Shown here in pieces: positions 17,557-59,344 of a stretch of 64,000 nt of DNA. The stretch is from a virus. The stretch is taken from positions 21,780 through 85,779 of IMG/VR virus record IMGVR_UViG_3300047356_000838; one strand, 5' to 3'. The notes below the pieces were generated by a model. The model did not search any database. It saw nothing but the letters and a program-made list of their open reading frames with translations, and was not told the origin of the DNA. The translations under genes and the position numbers were made by a program. Each line of letters opens with the position of its first letter. Within the stretch, counting starts at the first letter, position 1.

Positions 17557-18308
17557 AGTTTATCCGCTACTTCCAGCAAACTGCGTTTGTTCATTACATG
17601 TAAATCGCCTGTGTAGCGTACAACGTTATGTGATTCTTTGTGTTCATACTTGAGTAGCCAACGCCCATTTGCATAATCCAATACACTGTCACTACTGCTA
17701 AGTGCAGGCAATGCATAGTCAAATGTTGCTGTGTTTGCATATCCGTTGCATATTTGATGTGCAATGCTCATTGCAAAATCATTGCGAAACGGTGCTTTAC
17801 TAAACCCAAACAATTCTGCATAGTAAGCGTAGTTTTCATATACCATACGCCAAGCATCAAATATACGCTTTGCACGTTCCGTTTTTTTAAAATACACAAC
17901 TGTTGCCCAACGCATTTCAAACCAATTCTGCGTCATAAAACGGTCATGTCTAAACACATCATTGCCAGAGACATCCCAACTTGAATTATGGCAAACAAAG
18001 TCGTGATCACACCCAAAATATTTTGCTAGTGCGTCACACTGTACAATATAATCACTGTCAATCAGCAATGTTTCGTTGTATGGACTAAGTTCATAGGCAC
18101 TGTATCTGCCTATGTTGTTCCACTCTGTACCTTCTAGTTCGCCGTTAGGGTAACGAAATGTGCGAAAGTTTTTTTGTGCAGGATCTAGTTTAACTACGGT
18201 ACTAGGTACACCTAAATGCTTTTCTGCTAGTCGTGCGCATGTTTCACTTAGACGTAGATAGTCTAACTGTGCGCTTTCACTGTACAGTATTAGTATGCCT
18301 TTAGACAG
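17547..18308 (-). CDS. GT8-like glycosyltransferase with probable CTG start (MSKGILILYSE...)
   Basis: Frame is open 240 nt upstream of the ORF-track start; YELSPYNETLLIDSDY, FRNDFAMSIA, HVMNK; AGGGG SD before CTG. Confidence 0.7.
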   Translation of the reverse strand: MSKGILILYSESAQLDYLRLSETCARLAEKHLGVPSTVVKLDPAQKNFRTFRYPNGELEGTEWNNIGRYSAYELSPYNETLLIDSDYIVQCDALAKYFGCDHDFVCHNSSWDVSGNDVFRHDRFMTQNWFEMRWATVVYFKKTERAKRIFDAWRMVYENYAYYAELFGFSKAPFRNDFAMSIAHQICNGYANTATFDYALPALSSSDSVLDYANGRWLLKYEHKESHNVVRYTGDLHVMNKRSLLEVADKLCA

Positions 18309-52664: not shown

Positions 52665-54428
52665 ATGTTCAAATTAGATACACTTACAGTAAAAAACTTT
52701 ATGAGCGTGGGTAATACCACACAGGCCATAGACTTTAACCGCAATGACCTTACACTAGTGCTAGGTGAAAACTTGGACACAGGCGGAGGCGATGCTGGCA
52801 GCAGAAACGGTACTGGTAAGACCACTATCATCAATGCGCTAAGTTATGCACTATATGGCAATGCACTCACAAACATTCGCAAAGATAACTTGATTAACAA
52901 GACTAACAGCAAAAATATGCTAGTAACCGTCGAATTTGAAAAAGATGGACTGAGTTATCGCATCGAACGTGGTCGTAAGCCCAATGTGCTAAAGTTCTAC
53001 ATCAACAACAGCGAACAAGAAACAGACGACAACGCACAGGGCGATAGCAGAGAAACACAAAAGGCTATCGAAGAACTGTTGGGTATGAGTCATGACATGT
53101 TCAAACATGTGCTTGCACTGAATACCTACAGTGAGCCGTTTTTGAGTATGCGCACCAACGATCAACGTGCTATCATTGAACAGTTGTTGGGTATTACTAT
53201 TCTCAGTGAAAAAGCAGAGAATCTCAAAGAGATGGTGCGTGTAACTAAGAACAAAATCCAAGAGGAAGAGTTCCGTATCAAAGCAGTTGAAGATGCTAAC
53301 GGCAAGATTGTAGAACAAGTTGATGCACTCAAACGCAGACAGCGTATGTGGCAAGAGAAAAAAGATCAGGACATTGCAAACTTTAAAACAGCAATCAATG
53401 ATCTAAGTCATGTTGACATTGATGCTGAACTTAGAGCGCACACTGAACTTGCAGACTGGAACACGCTAAACAATGCACAAGTGCAATTACAAAAGGATGT
53501 TGCAGCACTGCAGGCACAGGAAGGCAGAGCAGAGCGCGATGTTAAAAAAGCAAACAAAGCTCTAGTAGGATGGCAAGATGGAGTGTGTCATAGTTGCAAT
53601 CAAAGCATAGAACATTTGGACAGCCACAAACAAGAGATTGAAAAAGCGGAGAAGGAACATGACGAAGCAAATAATTTCCTTAGCGAGTTACAAACAGCAA
53701 TTACAGAGCTCAAAACTAAGCAAGAAACAGTCCCAAGCAAACCACGAACTTTCTATGATAGCGCCAATGATGCACACAACCATCGTTCAAGCCTATCCAC
53801 ACTGGAATCACAACTACAAAGTAAGCAAGATGAAAGTGACCCTTACACCGATCAAATAGCAGACATGGAAACTACTGCAGTGCAGGAAGTTACCTGGGAT
53901 ACAATCAACGAACTTACCCGTGTGCAGAATCATCAGGAGTTCTTGCTTAAACTTCTTACTAACAAAGACAGTTTTATCCGCAAGCGTATTATTGATCAGA
54001 ACCTTGCATACTTAAATACAAGACTAGAAGGATACCTGGGCGCAGTTGGACTACCACACACAGTGGTGTTCCAAAATGATCTAACAGTAGAAATACAAGA
54101 ACTGGGCAGAGACTTGGACTTTGACAACTTGAGCAGAGGTGAACGTAACAGACTTATACTTTCATTAAGTTGGGCGTTCCGTGATGTTTGGGAAAGCCTG
54201 TATCAACCAATCAACTTGTTGTTTATTGATGAACTAGTAGACAGTGGCATGGACAGTGCAGGTGTAGAAAACGCCATGGGTGTACTAAAGCGTATGAGCA
54301 GAGAGCGTAACAAAAGTGTATGGCTAGTAAGTCACAAAGACGAACTTATAGGGCGTGTGAACAATGTGCTAAAAGTTATCAAAGAAAATGGATTTACCAG
54401 TTATGATACTGATGTAGAACTAGTATGA
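52665..54428 (+). CDS. gp46: Recombination ATPase gp46 (Rad50/SbcC-like)
   Basis: KNFMSVG, NGTGKTT, CHSC zinc hook, LSRGE, LLFIDE, VSH. Confidence 0.95.
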   Translation: MFKLDTLTVKNFMSVGNTTQAIDFNRNDLTLVLGENLDTGGGDAGSRNGTGKTTIINALSYALYGNALTNIRKDNLINKTNSKNMLVTVEFEKDGLSYRIERGRKPNVLKFYINNSEQETDDNAQGDSRETQKAIEELLGMSHDMFKHVLALNTYSEPFLSMRTNDQRAIIEQLLGITILSEKAENLKEMVRVTKNKIQEEEFRIKAVEDANGKIVEQVDALKRRQRMWQEKKDQDIANFKTAINDLSHVDIDAELRAHTELADWNTLNNAQVQLQKDVAALQAQEGRAERDVKKANKALVGWQDGVCHSCNQSIEHLDSHKQEIEKAEKEHDEANNFLSELQTAITELKTKQETVPSKPRTFYDSANDAHNHRSSLSTLESQLQSKQDESDPYTDQIADMETTAVQEVTWDTINELTRVQNHQEFLLKLLTNKDSFIRKRIIDQNLAYLNTRLEGYLGAVGLPHTVVFQNDLTVEIQELGRDLDFDNLSRGERNRLILSLSWAFRDVWESLYQPINLLFIDELVDSGMDSAGVENAMGVLKRMSRERNKSVWLVSHKDELIGRVNNVLKVIKENGFTSYDTDVELV

Positions 54429-54955
54429 AATTTGAAATTGAATTTGAAGTAGAAACACATGACAGAACTAGTCCTCCGCTTATAACTGTTTGCAATCAAG
54501 AATTTGTGTTAAGTAATGGAATCTGTAAGATAGAGTTTGACTGCACTGAATCCAATGGATTCAATCTTGTTTGGAAAAACAAAACAGGAAGAGACACAGT
54601 TTGTAATAGCACGGGCGATATTGTTGCTGATAAAAACTTTAAACTTGTACGCATATGGATAGACGGGATACTAGCCGAATCTTGGTTTATAACTGATTGT
54701 GTGTACTATCCTGAATACTTTCGCGCTGAACATAATTGGCCCACTGAAATTAAAAGTCCCTATGTTATATCCTTTCCAGGATCCGTTGTGTTTTCATGGC
54801 ATGGCGATTTTTGGACATGGTATAAAAACAAACGCATGGAATATGCAACTATTGAAAATTTAGACTTAGATCCTGATCGTGTTTGGAAATTTGCAGGAAG
54901 TTACGCAATGTATCCAGAGCTAGTGTATGAGTTTGAGAATTTGTTAAATGAATAA
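54425..54955 (+). CDS. Hypothetical protein
   Basis: 176-aa ORF with ATGA-type coupling to gp46 and to the B12 radical SAM gene. Confidence 0.6.
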   Translation: MKFEIEFEVETHDRTSPPLITVCNQEFVLSNGICKIEFDCTESNGFNLVWKNKTGRDTVCNSTGDIVADKNFKLVRIWIDGILAESWFITDCVYYPEYFRAEHNWPTEIKSPYVISFPGSVVFSWHGDFWTWYKNKRMEYATIENLDLDPDRVWKFAGSYAMYPELVYEFENLLNE

Positions 54956-56513
54956 ATTTGTATTTGTAACACTGCCATCTGTAGAGCTAGAACGGCCACC
55001 AGCAGCCGCTGGCGCACTAGCACCTGTTATCAAAAAAGCAGGACTTGATCCAGTTATAAAAGATTTTACATTGTATTTGTTTAAAAATTTAAATTATACA
55101 ATAATACAAAAACTAGAAAAATACTGGCGAGGCAAGAGCGACGCACTTGACCAGGAGGCAAGAAACGCTCTTAACGAACATTTAGATATCTTTATTGCAG
55201 ACATACTCAGCAATAATCCAACTTGGATAGGCATAAGTGTGTTTAGTCGATTCAGTGTTGTGGCCGCTGACGAATTTCTACAAGCCCTAAAACACAGAAG
55301 CAATTACACTGGTGACGTAGTAGTAGGAGGGTCTGGGATTTCGTCAGAGCTTAACAGAGACCTTAAAAACGAGATTGGTGTTAAACAGAGTTTTGCAGAT
55401 CATGCACTTGAACAAAAACTTTGCACATACTTTATACAAGGCGACAGTGAAGAAAGTTTGCATGCACTACTAACAGGTGACACAAGTTATCCAGGAATAA
55501 ATGGAGTTACACCACCAAAACAAATAATGGAACTTGATGATTTACCAATGAACGATTATAGTCTAATTCCTCCTACAGATTATTTTCCTTCAAATATGCC
55601 AGGCGTGTATATTACTGCTAGTCGTGGGTGTGTGCGTAGATGCAGTTTTTGTAACGTGCCAGATCTTTGGCCTAAATTTAAAATGCGTTCGCCAGAAAAT
55701 ATTGTTGCTGAGATAAAACACAATGCTGATCAGGGAGCAAAGATTTTTCAATTCACAGACAGTCTTATCAATGGCGACTTGAGAAAATGGCGTGCTATCA
55801 ATCGAGGCCTAGCAGAGCTTAGACAAGATGAGAAATACAAAGACATTAAATACCTAGGACAATTTATTTGCCGTCCAAGAGCGCAGCAAACTGAAGAAGA
55901 TTGGTATTGGTATGCCCAAGGAGGCATGGATATAGCAATAGTTGGATTCGAAAGTTTTAGTCCCAGTGTTCGCACAAGTATGGGAAAATACTATCATAAT
56001 GAGGATATTGATTTTCATTTTGAACAAAGTTCCAAGTATGGAATCAAAACTATTGCACTGATGTTTGTGGGTTATCCAAACGAAACACAGGAAGATCACG
56101 AAATGAACTTGGAATTTTTACACAGATACAAGAAGTACGCTGATGCAGGTAGTATTATGATGGTTCGCTGGGGATACACTGGTATGTTTTTCAAGTCACA
56201 AAAAATTAATGACACGGAAATTGATATAGTGCTTGATCCAAAATTTGAAGAACGTTTTAGTTCACTTCCAGCAAGTTTACGAGATGTTGCCCTGGGCTTT
56301 AGTTGGGTAAATCGTATGAATCCCTCACTTACACTAAATGAACGTATGCGTAGAAGATTGGAACTACACAAGTTAAGCGTGGATCTAGGCTGGCCGCAAA
56401 CACGCTCAGAAGAAGAATTAACATTGTTAATTGCAATTATGAAACACCTAAAAAATGTAAATGCAGTTGGTGATCTTAGTTACTTGGATGAATTACAGGA
56501 CATGCATGACTAA
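54948..56513 (+). CDS. Cobalamin (B12)-binding-domain radical SAM protein
   Basis: N-terminal PP...L, IGISVFS, VVVGGSG, GDSE; ASRGCVRRCSFC, FTDS, GFES, VGYPNET. Confidence 0.9.
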   Translation: MNKFVFVTLPSVELERPPAAAGALAPVIKKAGLDPVIKDFTLYLFKNLNYTIIQKLEKYWRGKSDALDQEARNALNEHLDIFIADILSNNPTWIGISVFSRFSVVAADEFLQALKHRSNYTGDVVVGGSGISSELNRDLKNEIGVKQSFADHALEQKLCTYFIQGDSEESLHALLTGDTSYPGINGVTPPKQIMELDDLPMNDYSLIPPTDYFPSNMPGVYITASRGCVRRCSFCNVPDLWPKFKMRSPENIVAEIKHNADQGAKIFQFTDSLINGDLRKWRAINRGLAELRQDEKYKDIKYLGQFICRPRAQQTEEDWYWYAQGGMDIAIVGFESFSPSVRTSMGKYYHNEDIDFHFEQSSKYGIKTIALMFVGYPNETQEDHEMNLEFLHRYKKYADAGSIMMVRWGYTGMFFKSQKINDTEIDIVLDPKFEERFSSLPASLRDVALGFSWVNRMNPSLTLNERMRRRLELHKLSVDLGWPQTRSEEELTLLIAIMKHLKNVNAVGDLSYLDELQDMHD

Positions 56514-57036
56514 AATAGCAATTACAGGACACACCAGTGGTATAGGCAAAGCATGCGCTGAAGTGTTCAGTGCGCATGAAATATTTGGATATAGCACTAG
56601 CACGGGCTGGGATCTAGCAGAACCCTGGAAAATTATGAAGGATATACTACGCCAAGATTGTACTGTGTTCATAAACAATGCCTATTATCAAACTAGTCAA
56701 AGTGAACTTCTTAAACAAGTGCATGCGCATTGGAAAAATACCAATCGTACTATTATAAACATAGGGAGTTATATAACAGATTATCCACGATTGGAAAAAG
56801 ATCTGGACTCAGAGCCCTGGGAATATCGTGACAACAAACAGGATCTACTAGCGACTTTTCGCACAATTGCACAATCCAATACACAGTGCAATGTACATAT
56901 GATTAGCCCTGGTCCTGTAGATACTCCCATGATAAAACACATAGATACAACTAAAATGCATGCTTGCAAAGTAGCAAGCCTAGTTAATCTAATGCTGGAA
57001 ACCCCTTATTTGAAAGAAGTCACATTATATGATTAA
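56506..57036 (+). CDS. Short-chain dehydrogenase/reductase
   Basis: ITGHTSGIG, FINNA, NIGS, Y...K (YRDNK), PGPVDT; ATG at 56506. Confidence 0.85.
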   Translation: MTKIAITGHTSGIGKACAEVFSAHEIFGYSTSTGWDLAEPWKIMKDILRQDCTVFINNAYYQTSQSELLKQVHAHWKNTNRTIINIGSYITDYPRLEKDLDSEPWEYRDNKQDLLATFRTIAQSNTQCNVHMISPGPVDTPMIKHIDTTKMHACKVASLVNLMLETPYLKEVTLYD

Positions 57037-58117
57037 CAAATACGGATGGCAATTTTATCATTGGCACATTGAGCCAAGCAGCAAATGTAGTCTAAGATGT
57101 CCTAGATGTCCTAGAACAGAGATGCCAGACACGCCTTGGCTAAACAAAGAAATTAGTTTGGAAGAATTTAAACGTACTTTTACACCTGACTTTATTAGTG
57201 AGTTTGTGCAACGTTTTACTATGTGTGGAGATGTTGGTGATCCAATTTACTGTAAAGACTACTTACAAATTGTAGAATATATAAAAACTGTAAAACCAAA
57301 CTGTCATGTATATACTATTACTAACGGAAGTTACAAAACAGAACGTTGGTGGACTGAATTTGCTAGAATTAGCAACGAGTATGATACTGTAAACTTTAGC
57401 GTTGATGGATACGATCAAATAAGCAATGATCTGTACAGAGTAAACAGTAACTTTAAAAGTATTATGCAGGGTATGCACATCATGGGCCATCAGAGCACCG
57501 CTTTTGTAAACTGGGCAGCAATCTATTTTAACTTTAATCAAGATCATACACAAAAAATTGTAGAACTTGCAAAGACCAACGGCTGCGATGCAGTACAATG
57601 GACTAAAAGTACAAAATTTAGTAGTAAATATGACGGTGCATATGGTGAAGATTTGCTTGAACCTCGTCAAGAATTTATTAGTAAAACAGACAGATACGAA
57701 AGAAACACACAACTTTTAACTAATCGCACACAAAATACGAATCAATATTTGACAACTAACAAAGAAAAGTACTATAATACAAGAGAAGTAAATGGAATTC
57801 TACCTCTTTGTCTAGTAGGCAATCGAGGCATGTATATAAATGCTGAAGGCACAGTTCATCCATGTAGTTGGACAAGTTTTCCTTATCAAAGCATGAGTTT
57901 TGAAAATAAGACTATTAAATATGAAGATAGTTTTTTTGAAAAATATAGACATATACTGAACGTAAAAAATGGACTAACTATAGAACAAGTGTTAAATCAC
58001 GAGTTATGGGAAAAGTTTTTTACAGGAATGAAAAATGACACTTGGGTAGAATGTAGTCTAAAATGCAGAGCAAGCGTTGTAGATGAAAACTATGCAGTTG
58101 GATATGAAACAAACTAA
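57029..58117 (+). CDS. Radical SAM protein with C-terminal SPASM/twitch domain
   Basis: CSLRCPRC, CGDVGDP, TNG, FSVDG, C...G.VHPCSW...C...C. Confidence 0.9.
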   Translation: MINKYGWQFYHWHIEPSSKCSLRCPRCPRTEMPDTPWLNKEISLEEFKRTFTPDFISEFVQRFTMCGDVGDPIYCKDYLQIVEYIKTVKPNCHVYTITNGSYKTERWWTEFARISNEYDTVNFSVDGYDQISNDLYRVNSNFKSIMQGMHIMGHQSTAFVNWAAIYFNFNQDHTQKIVELAKTNGCDAVQWTKSTKFSSKYDGAYGEDLLEPRQEFISKTDRYERNTQLLTNRTQNTNQYLTTNKEKYYNTREVNGILPLCLVGNRGMYINAEGTVHPCSWTSFPYQSMSFENKTIKYEDSFFEKYRHILNVKNGLTIEQVLNHELWEKFFTGMKNDTWVECSLKCRASVVDENYAVGYETN

Positions 58118-58128
58118 GGAGACATACT

Positions 58129-58302
58129 ATGTCACACGAACAGATCGTAGAACAATATGAAGCATACTTGAAAGAGCATGCTGCATTTGAAGAAAAAGGC
58201 GTTAAAGCCGCAGCAACTCGCGCTCGCAAAGCACTGGGCGAAATTGGCAAACTTAGCAAGGCACGCCGCGCTGAGATTCAGGAAAAGAAGAACAATATGT
58301 AA
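58129..58302 (+). CDS. Histone H1-like Hc1-family small protein (not in ORF track)
   Basis: MSHEQIVEQYEAYLKEHAAFEEKGVKAAATRARKALGEIGKLSKARRAEIQEKKNNM; strong TAAGGAG SD; G.KAA..RARK motif. Confidence 0.8.
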   Translation: MSHEQIVEQYEAYLKEHAAFEEKGVKAAATRARKALGEIGKLSKARRAEIQEKKNNM

Positions 58303-58323: not shown

Positions 58324-58749
58324 ATGGAACTTTGGTATTATAATGACGAAATTGTAGAAGAACTACCAGAAGGTACTGTGGGCTTTGTATACTTGATTAC
58401 AAACACAACTAACAATAGAAAATACATTGGCAAAAAACTGGCACAATTCAAAAGAACTAAACCACCTCTCAAAGGCAGAAAAAACAAAAGGCGTAGCACT
58501 GTAGAAAGTGACTGGCGCGAATATTATGGCTCATCAGATGAACTCAACGAAGATGTTGAAAAACTAGGCACACAAAGTTTCAAACGCGAAATACTGTTCT
58601 ATTGCACTAGCAAAAGTGAACTAAGTTACGTTGAAGCGAGAGAACAATTCAATTACAAAGTATTAGAATCCGACGAATACTACAATGGGCACATTAGAGT
58701 GAGAGTACACGGTAAAGGTATTCTCAACAACAAACAATTAAATGGCTAA
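58324..58749 (+). CDS. Stand-alone GIY-YIG nuclease-domain protein
   Basis: GFVYLITN...RKYIG, YYGSS, FKREIL, catalytic E (VEAREQ), YYN. Confidence 0.85.
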   Translation: MELWYYNDEIVEELPEGTVGFVYLITNTTNNRKYIGKKLAQFKRTKPPLKGRKNKRRSTVESDWREYYGSSDELNEDVEKLGTQSFKREILFYCTSKSELSYVEAREQFNYKVLESDEYYNGHIRVRVHGKGILNNKQLNG

Positions 58750-58751
58750 CA

Positions 58752-59075
58752 TAGTGTCATAATACTAATAATTTAGCGTTTACGGTCTGCGCATTAAACC
58801 GTCGTTGACACAAGTAAAACCAACTTTAGGCACAAAAGATAGCGGCTCTGAGAAAAAGCAACCGCAACTGAACACACATTGCTGTTATGATGTGTGCTAG
58901 GTTCCGAGACTATTCAGTGAAGGCTGAAGTAGGGGGTCAGCGGGTTTCCGCCTCCGTGTAGTAATACAATCTTCTTATAACAGTGAGTGATGGACTAGTA
59001 AGATATTCATTCAGTACTTCATCCGGAAACGGGTGAAGTATGAGCTCCGGTTCTGTAAGATAATCGTCGCTTCGC
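58752..59075 (+). ncRNA. Putative structured non-coding RNA (GNRA-capped helices, long-range pairing), class unknown
   Basis: At least 7 helices, GAAA/GTAA tetraloops, G-U pairs on the + strand; the only large intergenic gap in the window. Confidence 0.6.
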
Positions 59076-59112
59076 TAGTAAAAAAAAGTGAATGAAACGA
59101 AGTGAAATGAAC

Positions 59113-59132
59113 GAATGAGCTTTAGCTCATTC
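59113..59132. terminator. Hairpin GAATGAGC-TTTA-GCTCATTC between convergent units
   Basis: Perfect 8-bp stem 2 nt past the stop of 59135..59344; pyrimidine/T-rich tract follows on the minus strand. Confidence 0.6.
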
Positions 59133-59134
59133 CC

Positions 59135-59344
59135 TTAAAGTATTAGTTGTTTGGCTTTTTTACTAAGTTCGACATTGCCTTCTAGAACTTCATTGAATAA
59201 TGCTATGTCGTTAAGACTCATACTCATGAGTTCAGCATAACTCATGCCTCTCATATACCAACATAAACTTGCAATAAACTTTTTTAGCCTCTTAACCTCT
59301 TTGTCATAATCTTCTAACATCTGAACAATTTGGTCATTTGTCAT
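59135..59344 (-). CDS. gp51-like baseplate/tail assembly chaperone, probably expressed as a -1 frameshift extension
   Basis: LCWYMRGMSY.ELM.MS pattern; no SD; in the -1 frame of the upstream gene after T TTT TTC. Confidence 0.65.
   Translation of the reverse strand: MTNDQIVQMLEDYDKEVKRLKKFIASLCWYMRGMSYAELMSMSLNDIALFNEVLEGNVELSKKAKQLIL

What the first reader, a model, noticed from the sequence alone, without database searches (positions are those of the whole stretch)
58324..59132. Minimal GIY-YIG nuclease immediately followed by a ~320-380-nt highly structured, apparently unnamed RNA
Seen: in a genome where genes overlap by a few bases, this is the only large gap, and it is full of helices on the + strand. 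They are GTGTCA 58754-59/TGACAC 58806-11; ACGGT/ACCGT 58782-58802; GCGGCT-CTGAGAAA-AGC..CCGC 58842-65 (T-loop-like CUGAGA); CACACATTG/TGATGTGTG 58873-96; CTATTCAGT-GAAG-GCTGAAGTAG 58910-32; GGGG..GCGG-GTTT-CCGC-CTCC 58933-55; TGTA-GTAA-TACA 58957-68 (GNRA); and TACTTCATCCG-GAAA-CGGGTGAAGTA 59015-40 (11 bp, GNRA). In addition 58879-58890 (TTGCTGTTATGA) is complementary to 58975-58986 (TTATAACAGTGA) over 12 bp with three G-U wobbles, a pseudoknot or switch that works best on the + strand. GTAAGATA occurs twice (58998, 59055). The upstream GIY-YIG protein is only 141 aa and appears to lack the C-terminal DNA-binding domains of homing endonucleases such as I-TevI. Inference: a nuclease-RNA ribonucleoprotein (by analogy to IscB/HEARO), a ribozyme, or a replication/packaging RNA.
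Basis: partly seen in the sequence, partly recalled or inferred. Interest (0 to 1): 0.85.

Follow-up and report, generated by a model that had tools for sequence, protein, structure and literature searches.

The report
Twin-box phage RNA beside nuclease gene
The gene-free stretch behind a small DNA-cutting enzyme gene of this uncultured marine phage encodes a real, intricately knotted non-coding RNA of about 380 bases that is widespread in related phages, but the enzyme looks like a replaceable neighbour and not the RNA's working partner.

Summary
The 385-nt gap (58750-59134) is the largest non-coding stretch of the window. It encodes a + strand RNA of about 380 nt. A profile found relatives in 183 fetched loci (108 viral, 73 metagenome, 2 MAG contigs), giving 115 distinct full-length copies with median identity 59%. 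No Rfam family matches. The 3' module and a pair of identical 8-nt "twin boxes" tie it to the longer elements that follow Rfam Polynucleobacter-1 (RF01718) in Polynucleobacter genomes. This window is a shorter marine variant without a detectable RF01718 domain. This scan has found the same family before on other DNA. The nuclease link is synteny. In 116 loci the ORF just upstream is GIY-YIG in 91, an unrelated PD-(D/E)XK nuclease in 16 and something else in 9. The cassette is swapped between close relatives, the RNA lies on the other side of the GIY-YIG gene in two loci, and four cultured phages carry the nuclease without the RNA. The RNA's function is unknown. A guide-RNA or ribonucleoprotein role is not supported, but it is not excluded either.

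The parts
58129..58302 (+). Hc1-like small basic protein gene (57 aa), first gene of the conserved order Hc1-like, nuclease, RNA
   Evidence: PF07432, E 6.8e-12. A homologue or a similar small basic ORF lies upstream of the nuclease in many loci.
58324..58749 (+). GIY-YIG nuclease gene, catalytic domain only (141 aa)
   Evidence: PF19835 SegE_GIY-YIG, E 2.4e-37. phrog_447, E 1.1e-40. Below cut-off on TIGR01453, and only on profile positions 2-86 of 215. Invariant GFVY, YIG, R56, E89 and N121.
58750..59132 (+). Whole non-coding RNA (about 380 nt): 5' domain, pseudoknotted core, twin boxes and 3' module
   Evidence: Profile hits in 183 loci. Covariation. The + strand is inferred from many G-U pairs. 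One copy in the 85.8-kb record.
58754..58811 (+). Reduced 5' domain: closing stem 58754-59/58806-11 around hairpin 58782-86/58798-802
   Evidence: closing stem 91.7% paired with 4 of 6 pairs changed on both sides; inner hairpin 87.8% with 1 of 5. Other clades have a roughly 100-nt multi-hairpin domain here.
58838..58840 (+). GAU, possible long-range pairing with AUC 58969-71 (P1)
   Evidence: 99.7% of cells can pair but no pair is changed on both sides. Consistent with pairing, not shown.
58842..58865 (+). P2 hairpin (58842-45/58862-65) with conserved GCUCUG..CAAC interior
   Evidence: 4 of 4 pairs changed on both sides, 94.4% paired.
58873..58896 (+). P3 hairpin (58873-80/58889-96). Its loop 58882-88 forms pseudoknot 1 with 58977-83
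   Evidence: P3: 8 of 8 pairs changed on both sides. Pseudoknot: 7 of 7, 83.7% paired in a MAFFT alignment. Top mutual-information pairs.
58906..58948 (+). P4 (58906-11/58943-48), enclosing the near-invariant GCUGAAGUAGGGGGU
Evidence: 5 of 6 pairs changed on both sides, 97.9% paired.
58926..58929 (+). GAAG, pseudoknot 2 with CUUC 58971-74
   Evidence: Three of the four pairs were tested (58926-28 with 58972-74); the fourth shares C58971 with P1. 2 of these 3 covary (G-C 69, A-U 24, U-A 18; A-U 64, G-C 45, U-A 5), 99.7% paired.
58948..58956 (+). Invariant CCGCCUCCG. CCUCC 58951-55 could pair with GGGGG 58932-36
   Evidence: Invariant in 115 of 115 sequences, so the pairing is untestable.
58957..58968 (+). 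P5 hairpin, the site of 30-60-nt expansions in some lineages
   Evidence: 3 of 4 pairs changed on both sides. Insertions are visible.
58998..59005 (+). Twin box 1 (GTAAGATA)
59015..59040 (+). P7, an 11-bp hairpin with a GNRA loop between the boxes
   Evidence: 8 of 11 pairs changed on both sides, 91.1% paired.
59055..59062 (+). Twin box 2 (GTAAGATA)
   Evidence: The two boxes match at 7 or 8 of 8 positions in 89 of 101 sequences, across 32 distinct box pairs.
59067..59077 (+). Short hairpin with a UUC(G) loop; weak in this window, 5-7 bp in relatives
   Evidence: Seen in the aligned downstream sequences. Not counted formally.
59080..59132 (+). 3' module: A-rich linker, stem 59088-93/59107-12 around the GA..mini-hairpin..GAAA motif (59094-59107), and terminal hairpin 59113-20/59125-32
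   Evidence: 114 sequences: 84.3% paired against 62.7% in shuffles. Terminal hairpin 95.5% paired with 7 of 8 pairs changed on both sides. Flanking stem of 5 bp or more in 96 of 113. The same module lies downstream of RF01718 in 3 of 6 Polynucleobacter loci. No U-tract follows on +.
59135..59344 (-). Convergent 69-aa gene, which ends 2 nt after the RNA

Best explanation
The gap encodes a stand-alone, roughly 380-nt, doubly pseudoknotted non-coding RNA on the + strand. It is a short marine variant of the 'twin-box' RNA family, whose freshwater and Polynucleobacter members begin with the Rfam motif Polynucleobacter-1.

Shown here: the RNA is real, conserved at the level of base pairs, present once in this record, and in most phages placed at the end of the gene order Hc1-like, small nuclease, RNA.

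Inferred: it is transcribed with the nuclease mRNA in the usual arrangement. The nuclease is a replaceable, mobile-type cassette (GIY-YIG, PD-(D/E)XK or another homing-endonuclease-like gene) that sits next to a gene with long invariant stretches, as T4 segB sits among tRNA genes (recalled). It is not the RNA's obligate protein partner.

Most likely mode of action (inferred, not shown): a trans-acting scaffold. Its invariant core (UNCCG, GCUGAAGUAGGGGGU, CCGCCUCC, AAUCUUCUU) would bind a conserved factor. Its two identical single-stranded boxes would dock two copies, or two sites, of a lineage-specific partner.
For: RNA is real:
- Nucleotide conservation where the neighbouring baseplate protein is only 35-45% identical.
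- 183 profile hits in 402 fetched loci and 115 distinct full-length copies.
- 37 of 46 pairs changed on both sides. Covariation score 0.577 against 0.195 in shuffles (0 of 500 as high) and at most 0.109 when partners are slid. The 5' stem and the 3' module are also supported.
- G-U pairs favour the + strand.

Family link:
- The 53-nt 3'-module profile hits 3 of 6 RF01718-bearing Polynucleobacter loci on the same strand, about 270-320 nt downstream of the RF01718 match (E 5.5e-6, 6.4e-4, 0.02).
- By eye those loci share the CACAAAGAU start, the GCUCUG..CAGCAAC hairpin and twin boxes preceded by ACUC and AUCU.

Nuclease as neighbour:
- Upstream ORF classes 91, 16 and 9 of 116.
- At least 12 changes of class on the RNA tree.
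- GIY-YIG and PD-(D/E)XK are swapped between aligned flanks, and 0.8-1.0-kb ORFs are inserted between the GIY-YIG stop codon and the RNA start.
- The RNA lies upstream of GIY-YIG in L469 (same strand) and L434 (opposite strand).
- Four cultured phages have the nuclease and no RNA.
- The invariant residues are the same in RNA-linked and RNA-less homologues.

Twin boxes co-vary and have no complement in cis.
Against: - No locus was seen with an empty nuclease slot. All 116 have an ORF of at least 50 aa on the same strand ending within 260 nt upstream of the RNA core, and at least 108 of these are nucleases. In two of the 'other' cases the GIY-YIG gene is simply one gene further upstream. A purely selfish homing gene would be expected to be patchier.
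- The adjacency survives three different arrangements. This fits selection for linkage, which a functional pair would also show.
- The nuclease lacks any DNA-binding domain.
- Transcription, RNA ends and any partner are unshown. RNA-library contigs cover the RNA and both flanks alike.
- The scaffold model is inference only.
- The box shuffle control does not correct for relatedness of the sequences.
Confidence: 0.55

Rival explanations
1. Functional nuclease-RNA pair. The RNA guides, activates, inhibits or is processed by whichever small nuclease (GIY-YIG or PD-(D/E)XK) is encoded next to it, and the twin boxes read a target.
For: - At least 108 of 116 RNA loci have a nuclease gene directly upstream, and none has an empty slot.
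- The two genes stay adjacent when order or orientation differs (L469, L434).
- The nuclease has no DNA-binding domain.
- The RNA starts within a few nt of the nuclease stop codon.
- The boxes vary between lineages as a guide would.
Against: - Two unrelated nuclease folds would have to use the same RNA.
- Close GIY-YIG homologues with the same invariant residues work without it in Melnitz, S-SRM01, phiM12 and P-SSM2, and in L435 and L447.
- Genes can be inserted between the two.
- There is no reverse complement of the box in the 85.8 kb held or within 1.5 kb in relatives.
- Box variation is limited to a few positions of an RNAURAWR-like word.
- Earlier notes of this scan report nuclease-free copies in Polynucleobacter; I did not check this.
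Confidence: 0.2
2. Cis-acting replication or recombination signal. A structured transcript primes or marks an origin-like site at the boundary of the early and late gene blocks, the twin boxes act as iteron-like DNA words and the A-run as an unwinding element.
For: - Direct repeats that stay identical while differing between lineages behave like iterons.
- One copy per record.
- Position between convergent gene blocks, with an A-rich linker.
Against: - There are only two short boxes.
- Compensatory changes that include G-U pairs point to selection on the RNA fold, not on DNA.
- No initiator gene was identified.
- Nothing here tests replication.
Confidence: 0.1
3. A ribozyme or degenerate group I-type intron associated with its homing endonuclease.
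For: - Size, pseudoknots and invariant single-stranded stretches resemble large ribozymes.
- The window has a GTTCCGAGACTA stretch that recalls the group I 'R' element (recalled from memory).
- The neighbour is a GIY-YIG gene.
Against: - No group I or other ribozyme family matched in Rfam even at E up to 10.
- The R-like stretch is not conserved in relatives; only UNCCG is.
- There is no interrupted host gene and there are no exons.
- The helix order does not fit P3-P9 (my reading).
Confidence: 0.05
4. Not a functional RNA: a decayed C-terminal DNA-binding domain of a Seg-type endonuclease, or chance structure in a spacer.
For: The gap (385 nt, about 128 codons) is roughly the size of the missing domain. 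The folding z-scores are modest.
Against: - Base-pair covariation across 115 sequences.
- The same element follows PD-(D/E)XK genes.
- There is no ORF in the gap.
Confidence: 0.01

Closest known systems
Polynucleobacter-1 RNA motif (Rfam RF01718; Weinberg et al. 2010, PMC2864571; I saw only the table row that lists it)
   Same: In Polynucleobacter genomes the 141-nt motif is followed on the same strand by about 300 nt with the architecture seen here: a CACAAAGAU start, a GCUCUG..CAAC hairpin, twin boxes after ACUC and AUCU, an A-rich linker, the GAGCG..AGCGAAA hairpin and a terminal hairpin. The 3'-module profile hits 3 of 6 of these loci.
   Different: - The RF01718 model does not match this window or its genome record at E up to 10. 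It passed its gathering score in none of 36 related loci and gave no match at E up to 10 in L112.
- Here the 5' domain is cut down to one stem and one hairpin.
- My core profile and covariance model do not reach the Polynucleobacter copies.
- The catalogued motif covers only the 5' domain of the long forms.
Large ornate orphan RNAs (GOLLD, ROOL, HEARO, OLE, raiA); recalled from memory
   Same: Several hundred nt, multiple pseudoknots, invariant stretches, phage or mobile-element context, unknown biochemical role.
   Different: No sequence or structure match to any of them in Rfam. Twin identical boxes are not a described feature of those RNAs, as far as I recall.
   Same: A small nuclease gene lies next to a structured RNA of about 300 nt.
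   Different: Here the RNA lies 3' of the gene in most loci. The nuclease fold is interchangeable. The nuclease occurs widely without the RNA. No variable guide with a findable target was seen.
Free-standing GIY-YIG homing endonucleases beside RNA genes (T4 segB in the tRNA cluster); recalled from memory
   Same: A Seg-type GIY-YIG gene sits next to a highly conserved RNA gene. Cassettes are swapped or inserted at the same junction in relatives.
   Different: The protein lacks the C-terminal DNA-binding part. No empty sites were seen in 116 loci. Cutting of the RNA gene is untested.
T4 endonuclease II (DenA), a small GIY-YIG enzyme without extra domains; recalled from memory, idea also in scan note e1-5970318
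   Same: The size (about 140 aa) and domain make-up show that a GIY-YIG enzyme need not have an RNA or a DNA-binding domain in order to act. The Melnitz homologue lies two genes downstream of the gene for the small chain of ribonucleotide reductase.
   Different: No sequence match to any solved structure, with a single sequence or with a profile.

Membership tests
Rfam RF01718 Polynucleobacter-1 | Match to the covariance model at or above 37 bits | tested here: not met
   No match in the window at gathering score or at E up to 10. No match in the genome record at E up to 10. No match in 36 related loci at gathering score or in L112 at E up to 10. Positive control: 9 of 101 Polynucleobacter genomes match.
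Extended 'twin-box' RNA (unpublished; named in this scan's earlier notes) | Two identical short words, after ACUC and AUCU, flanking a long hairpin | tested here: met
   GTAAGATA at 58998 and 59055, flanking the hairpin 59015-40. 89 of 101 relatives match at 7 or 8 of 8 positions. The same layout is seen by eye in Polynucleobacter loci.
Extended 'twin-box' RNA (unpublished; named in this scan's earlier notes) | 3' module: A-rich linker, GAGCG..AGCGAAA hairpin and terminal hairpin | tested here: met
   Covariation. The profile hits 3 of 6 RF01718-bearing loci.
Extended 'twin-box' RNA (unpublished; named in this scan's earlier notes) | First third is the RF01718 domain | tested here: not met
   See the RF01718 row. 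The 5' domain here is 58 nt.
Group I intron | Rfam Intron_gpI match, conserved P3-P9 core and flanking exons of one gene | tested here: not met
   No match at E up to 10. The R-like stretch is not conserved. There is no split ORF.
RNA-guided nuclease of the IscB/TnpB omega-RNA kind | The nuclease always goes with its RNA, and the RNA carries a variable guide that matches a target | tested here: not met
   The nuclease occurs without the RNA in 4 cultured phages and in L435 and L447. No complement of the variable boxes was found. Binding itself is not testable with these tools.
SegE-type GIY-YIG nucleases (PF19835) | GIY-YIG catalytic domain with the invariant Y, Y-G, R, E and N residues | tested here: met
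   E 2.4e-37. Invariant residues in 16 of 16 aligned homologues. The list of catalytic residues is recalled from memory.
Seg / I-TevI homing endonucleases | C-terminal DNA-binding domain behind the catalytic domain | tested here: not met
   141 aa, and the Pfam domain covers residues 4-124. TIGR01453 is matched only on profile positions 2-86 of 215, below its cut-off.
Intrinsic terminator (for the terminal hairpin 59113-32) | G+C-rich hairpin followed at once by a U-tract on the RNA strand | tested here: not met
   No + strand site was called. The hairpin is called only on the - strand, with a weak tail. The hairpin is kept where the downstream genes differ.

The most novel reading that the evidence does not exclude
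The RNA is the shared specificity or control subunit for interchangeable minimal nucleases (GIY-YIG or PD-(D/E)XK). Its two identical, lineage-specific boxes would read a DNA or RNA target. This would be a new kind of RNA-dependent nuclease system in large aquatic phages.
Probability: 0.12. Interest if true: 0.95.

Novelty: new variant of a known kind. Interest (0 to 1): 0.6.

Why it matters
Large RNAs with several pseudoknots and invariant cores are rare, and most of those whose role is known are ribozymes or the cores of RNA-protein machines (recalled).

Only the 5' third of its long forms is catalogued. In the held library the name Polynucleobacter-1 occurs in one paper only, and a search for GIY-YIG together with structured or non-coding phage RNA listed nothing that describes it.

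This window shows that the RF01718 domain is dispensable. The conserved unit is the pseudoknotted core, the twin boxes and the 3' module. That narrows what a functional test has to include.

The constant company of small nucleases makes two hypotheses directly testable: the nuclease homes on the RNA gene, or the RNA and the nuclease work together.

Tried and rejected
- Rfam: whole window at gathering score and the gap at E up to 10. Only hits of 14-16 bits to snoRNA and sRNA families, which I rejected.
- tRNA and tmRNA scan: none.
- Group I intron idea, prompted by an R-like stretch: dropped when the stretch proved not to be conserved.
- RF01718 membership: tested and not met.
- My pattern hit two Polynucleobacter genomes (L197, L200). 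These looked like chance matches inside what appears to be coding sequence, and they are not RF01718. Only 2 genome-contig loci (L265, L285) matched the RNA profile, so most of the 120 hits look like chance.
- Partner for the twin boxes: no exact reverse complement within 1.5 kb, no G-U-tolerant complement at a consistent place in the RNA, none in the 85.8-kb record.
- blastn of the gap, of the invariant core and of a Polynucleobacter element against GenBank phages: only the nuclease gene of Melnitz, noise, or nothing.
- PDB sequence searches with the nuclease and with its profile: nothing usable.
- RNA libraries: Logan contigs of 4 RNA runs cover the RNA and both flanks, including contigs that bridge into the convergent gene. 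They show presence in RNA libraries, not transcription. One oligo-dT-library contig spans 58888-59136 and ends at the terminal hairpin, which is at most a hint. A joint 58863 to 58948 was seen in two runs at 85% likeness; I take it to come from relatives.
- A possible GCG/CGC stem in the 5' domain was entered one base off and is invariant anyway, so it remains untested.
- My crude ATAG-anchored test of the 5' closing stem was too noisy. The clade alignment replaced it.
- The supplements of Weinberg 2010, which may show the extent of RF01718, are closed and were not seen.
Full report
WHAT IS THERE

The window is part of an 85.8-kb uncultured virus record (CheckV completeness 23). The RNA region occurs in it once.

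On the + strand, in order:
- a 57-aa Hc1-like protein gene (PF07432, E 6.8e-12);
- a 141-aa GIY-YIG gene, 58324-58749 (PF19835 SegE_GIY-YIG, E 2.4e-37, covering residues 4-124);
- 385 nt without any ORF of 40 aa or more.

The next genes are convergent: a 69-aa gene and a T4_baseplate-family gene (PF12322) on the - strand.

In a greedy ORF cover the gap is the largest of the window; the next are 232 nt and 134 nt. Rfam gives nothing at gathering score for the 64 kb. Within the gap it gives only 14-16-bit noise at E 1.8 to 8.6. There is no tRNA or tmRNA. Folding energy is only mildly unusual on either strand (z -2.65 and -2.45), so the case rests on comparison with relatives.

THE RNA IS REAL AND WIDESPREAD

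- Loci fetched through the baseplate protein (45 loci, mostly 35-45% protein identity) already held stretches 70-86% identical to the gap at the nucleotide level.
- A profile built from 55 sequences matched 183 loci: 108 viral, 73 metagenome and 2 MAG contigs. It did not match the Melnitz locus.
- This gave 115 distinct full-length copies with a median pairwise identity of 59%.

STRUCTURE

On the tool alignment of these 115 sequences (A2), I counted a structure of 46 pairs.

| Measure | Observed | Shuffled | Partners slid |
|---|---|---|---|
| Cells paired | 90.9% | 69.3% (0 of 500 as high) | 36-46% |
| Covariation score | 0.577 | 0.195 | at most 0.109 |

37 of the 46 pairs have changes on both sides.

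Supported helices (window coordinates):
- 58842-45/58862-65;
- 58873-80/58889-96;
- 58906-11/58943-48;
- 58957-60/58965-68;
- 59015-25/59030-40;
- pseudoknot 1, 58882-88/58977-83.
- pseudoknot 2, GAAG 58926-29 with CUUC 58971-74, whose two variable pairs switch among G-C, A-U and U-A.

GAU 58838-40 with AUC 58969-71 is always pairable but shows no change on both sides.

The many G-U pairs place the RNA on the + strand.

CTATTCAGT/GCTGAAGTAG and GCGG-GTTT-CCGC are 66.7% and 76.3% paired, with 1 of 17 pairs changed on both sides and a covariation score of 0.026 against 0.020 in shuffles. GGGG/CUCC is invariant and so cannot be tested.

The 5' domain. In the window's own clade (20 sequences, A3) the closing stem 58754-59/58806-11 is 91.7% paired with 4 of 6 pairs changed on both sides. 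The inner hairpin is 87.8% paired with 1 of 5. Other clades carry a larger multi-hairpin domain of about 100 nt at this place. In both kinds the RNA begins with an AUAG a few nt after the nuclease stop codon.

The 3' module (59080-59132) is conserved too. It consists of an A-rich linker, a stem around a GA / mini-hairpin / GAAA motif, and a terminal hairpin. On 114 sequences 84.3% of cells pair against 62.7% in shuffles. The terminal hairpin is 95.5% paired with 7 of 8 pairs changed on both sides. The flanking stem has 5 bp or more in 96 of 113 sequences. No U-tract follows on the + strand.

TWIN BOXES

GTAAGATA occurs at 58998 and at 59055, on either side of the GNRA hairpin. Across relatives the word differs (ACATGATG, AGATAATG, GAATGAT, GGATAAT, GTTAGATA, AGCAGAT and others). 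Within a sequence the two copies stay alike:
- 89 of 101 sequences match at 7 or 8 of 8 aligned positions;
- the mean is 6.83 against 5.20 when the pairings are shuffled (maximum 5.47 in 200 shuffles).

That control ignores relatedness of the sequences.

No complement was found within 1.5 kb, none at a consistent place when G-U is allowed, and none in the 85.8-kb record. That record does hold a third same-sense copy of the 11-mer, inside ORF 54425-54955. What reads the boxes is unexplained.

RELATION TO KNOWN RNAS

Earlier notes of this scan describe the same kind of element on other genomes as an extended Polynucleobacter-1 'twin-box' RNA. I tested that lead.

Negative results:
- RF01718 does not match this window, its genome record, 36 related loci or L112.
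- My core profile and covariance model R1 do not reach the six Polynucleobacter loci named below.

Positive results:
- RF01718 matches 9 of 101 sampled Polynucleobacter genomes. I fetched six of these loci.
- In them the motif is followed on the same strand by sequence with the architecture seen here, including twin boxes (AGCGAAA) after ACUC and AUCU (by eye).
- My 53-nt 3'-module profile hits 3 of the 6 at the expected place (E 5.5e-6, 6.4e-4, 0.02).

I therefore read this window as a shorter marine variant of that family, with the 5' domain reduced. I file it as related to RF01718, not as a member of it.

In the held library the name Polynucleobacter-1 occurs only in Weinberg et al. 2010 (I read one table passage). 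A search for GIY-YIG together with non-coding or structured phage RNA listed nothing that describes this RNA (listing only).

THE NUCLEASE

From the RNA side the link is strong. In 116 distinct loci the same-strand ORF ending just upstream falls into these groups:

| Upstream ORF | Loci |
|---|---|
| GIY-YIG cluster | 91 |
| PDDEXK_15 nuclease (PF24608, E about 1e-22) | 16 |
| One unnamed cluster of 194-275 aa | 4 |
| Homing-endonuclease-like (phrog_314) | 1 |
| Singletons without a family | 4 |

The slot is dynamic.
- The ORF class changes at least 12 times on the RNA tree.
- L297 (PD-(D/E)XK) and L144 (GIY-YIG) align on both flanks but not in the cassette.
- In L394 and L358 an extra ORF of 340 or 272 aa sits between the GIY-YIG stop codon and the RNA start.

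From the nuclease side the link is loose.
- At least 593 viral contigs encode a relative.
- Of the best 80 loci, covariance model R1 finds the RNA in 36. In 34 it lies downstream on the same strand, and in three of these (L421-L423) about 1.2 kb away. In L469 it is upstream on the same strand, and in L434 upstream on the opposite strand.
- Twenty of the other loci match only the profile of the region 3' of the core, so they presumably have divergent cores, as in L461. L442 matched none of the profiles, but read by eye it has twin boxes and a 3' module of the Polynucleobacter type.
- Some loci have protein genes straight after the nuclease gene (L435, L447).
- 522 GenBank phage records encode a homologue.
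- In Melnitz, S-SRM01, phiM12 and P-SSM2 it is followed by genes or short gaps, and none of my RNA profiles hits significantly.
- The invariant residues, among them GFVY, YIG, R56, E89 and N121, are the same in RNA-linked and RNA-less homologues.

READING

The RNA is an independent gene. The nuclease is best seen as a replaceable cassette next to it. It may home on or beside this very conserved gene, or it may simply be kept in a conserved early operon.

Against a purely selfish cassette, no empty slot was seen in 116 loci, and the adjacency survives three different arrangements. I therefore keep a functional pairing at about 0.2.

The RNA's own job is unknown. I favour a trans-acting scaffold whose invariant core binds a conserved factor and whose twin boxes dock a lineage-specific partner. 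That is inference.

Expression is not shown. Contigs from four RNA libraries of three studies cover the RNA and both flanks.

Noticed in passing
L394:9090-10103 and L358:1425-2243 (coordinates with the RNA on +, as): The junction between the GIY-YIG stop codon and the RNA's first base is an insertion point. Close relatives differ by a 1.0-kb insert with a 340-aa ORF, or by a 272-aa ORF of no known family.
   Followed up: partly
L469:1129-1485 and L434:1060-1361: Two loci have the RNA on the other side of the GIY-YIG gene. In L469 it is upstream on the same strand, directly after the baseplate gene. In L434 it is upstream on the opposite strand. The pair stays adjacent in three arrangements.
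   Followed up: partly
window 58957-58968, and the same hairpin in L070, L147, L355, L081, L082, L164, L135, L068, L101, L052, L330, L291: The small hairpin after CCGCCUCCG carries lineage-specific expansions of about 30-60 nt. It looks like a tolerated insertion site on the RNA surface.
   Followed up: no
window 54515-54535: A third same-sense copy of the box with its left flank (an 11-mer identical to box 2) lies inside ORF 54425-54955. About 0.05 such matches per strand are expected by chance in the 85.8-kb record.
   Followed up: partly
window 54948-58117: Two radical-SAM genes (one with a SPASM domain) overlap or adjoin a 191-aa ORF just upstream of the Hc1-like gene. This is a possible tailoring cluster.
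   Followed up: no
window 18069-18300: The second-largest stretch without an ORF of 50 aa or more in the window (232 nt). Not examined.
   Followed up: no
L318:41-250 (- strand): A manA RNA (RF01745) match just over its gathering score (55.4 against 55.2 bits) in a metagenome contig that also carries the twin-box RNA.
   Followed up: no
L265 and L285: Two contigs binned into bacterial MAGs (Haliscomenobacter sp. and a Legionellales bacterium) carry the RNA and cluster with phage copies on the RNA tree. They are probably phage contigs that were mis-binned.
   Followed up: no
GenBank annotations under the matches: The small GIY-YIG family (phrog_447) is widely annotated as 'NAD synthetase' in cyanophage and rhizobiophage records. 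This looks like a propagated misannotation.
   Followed up: no
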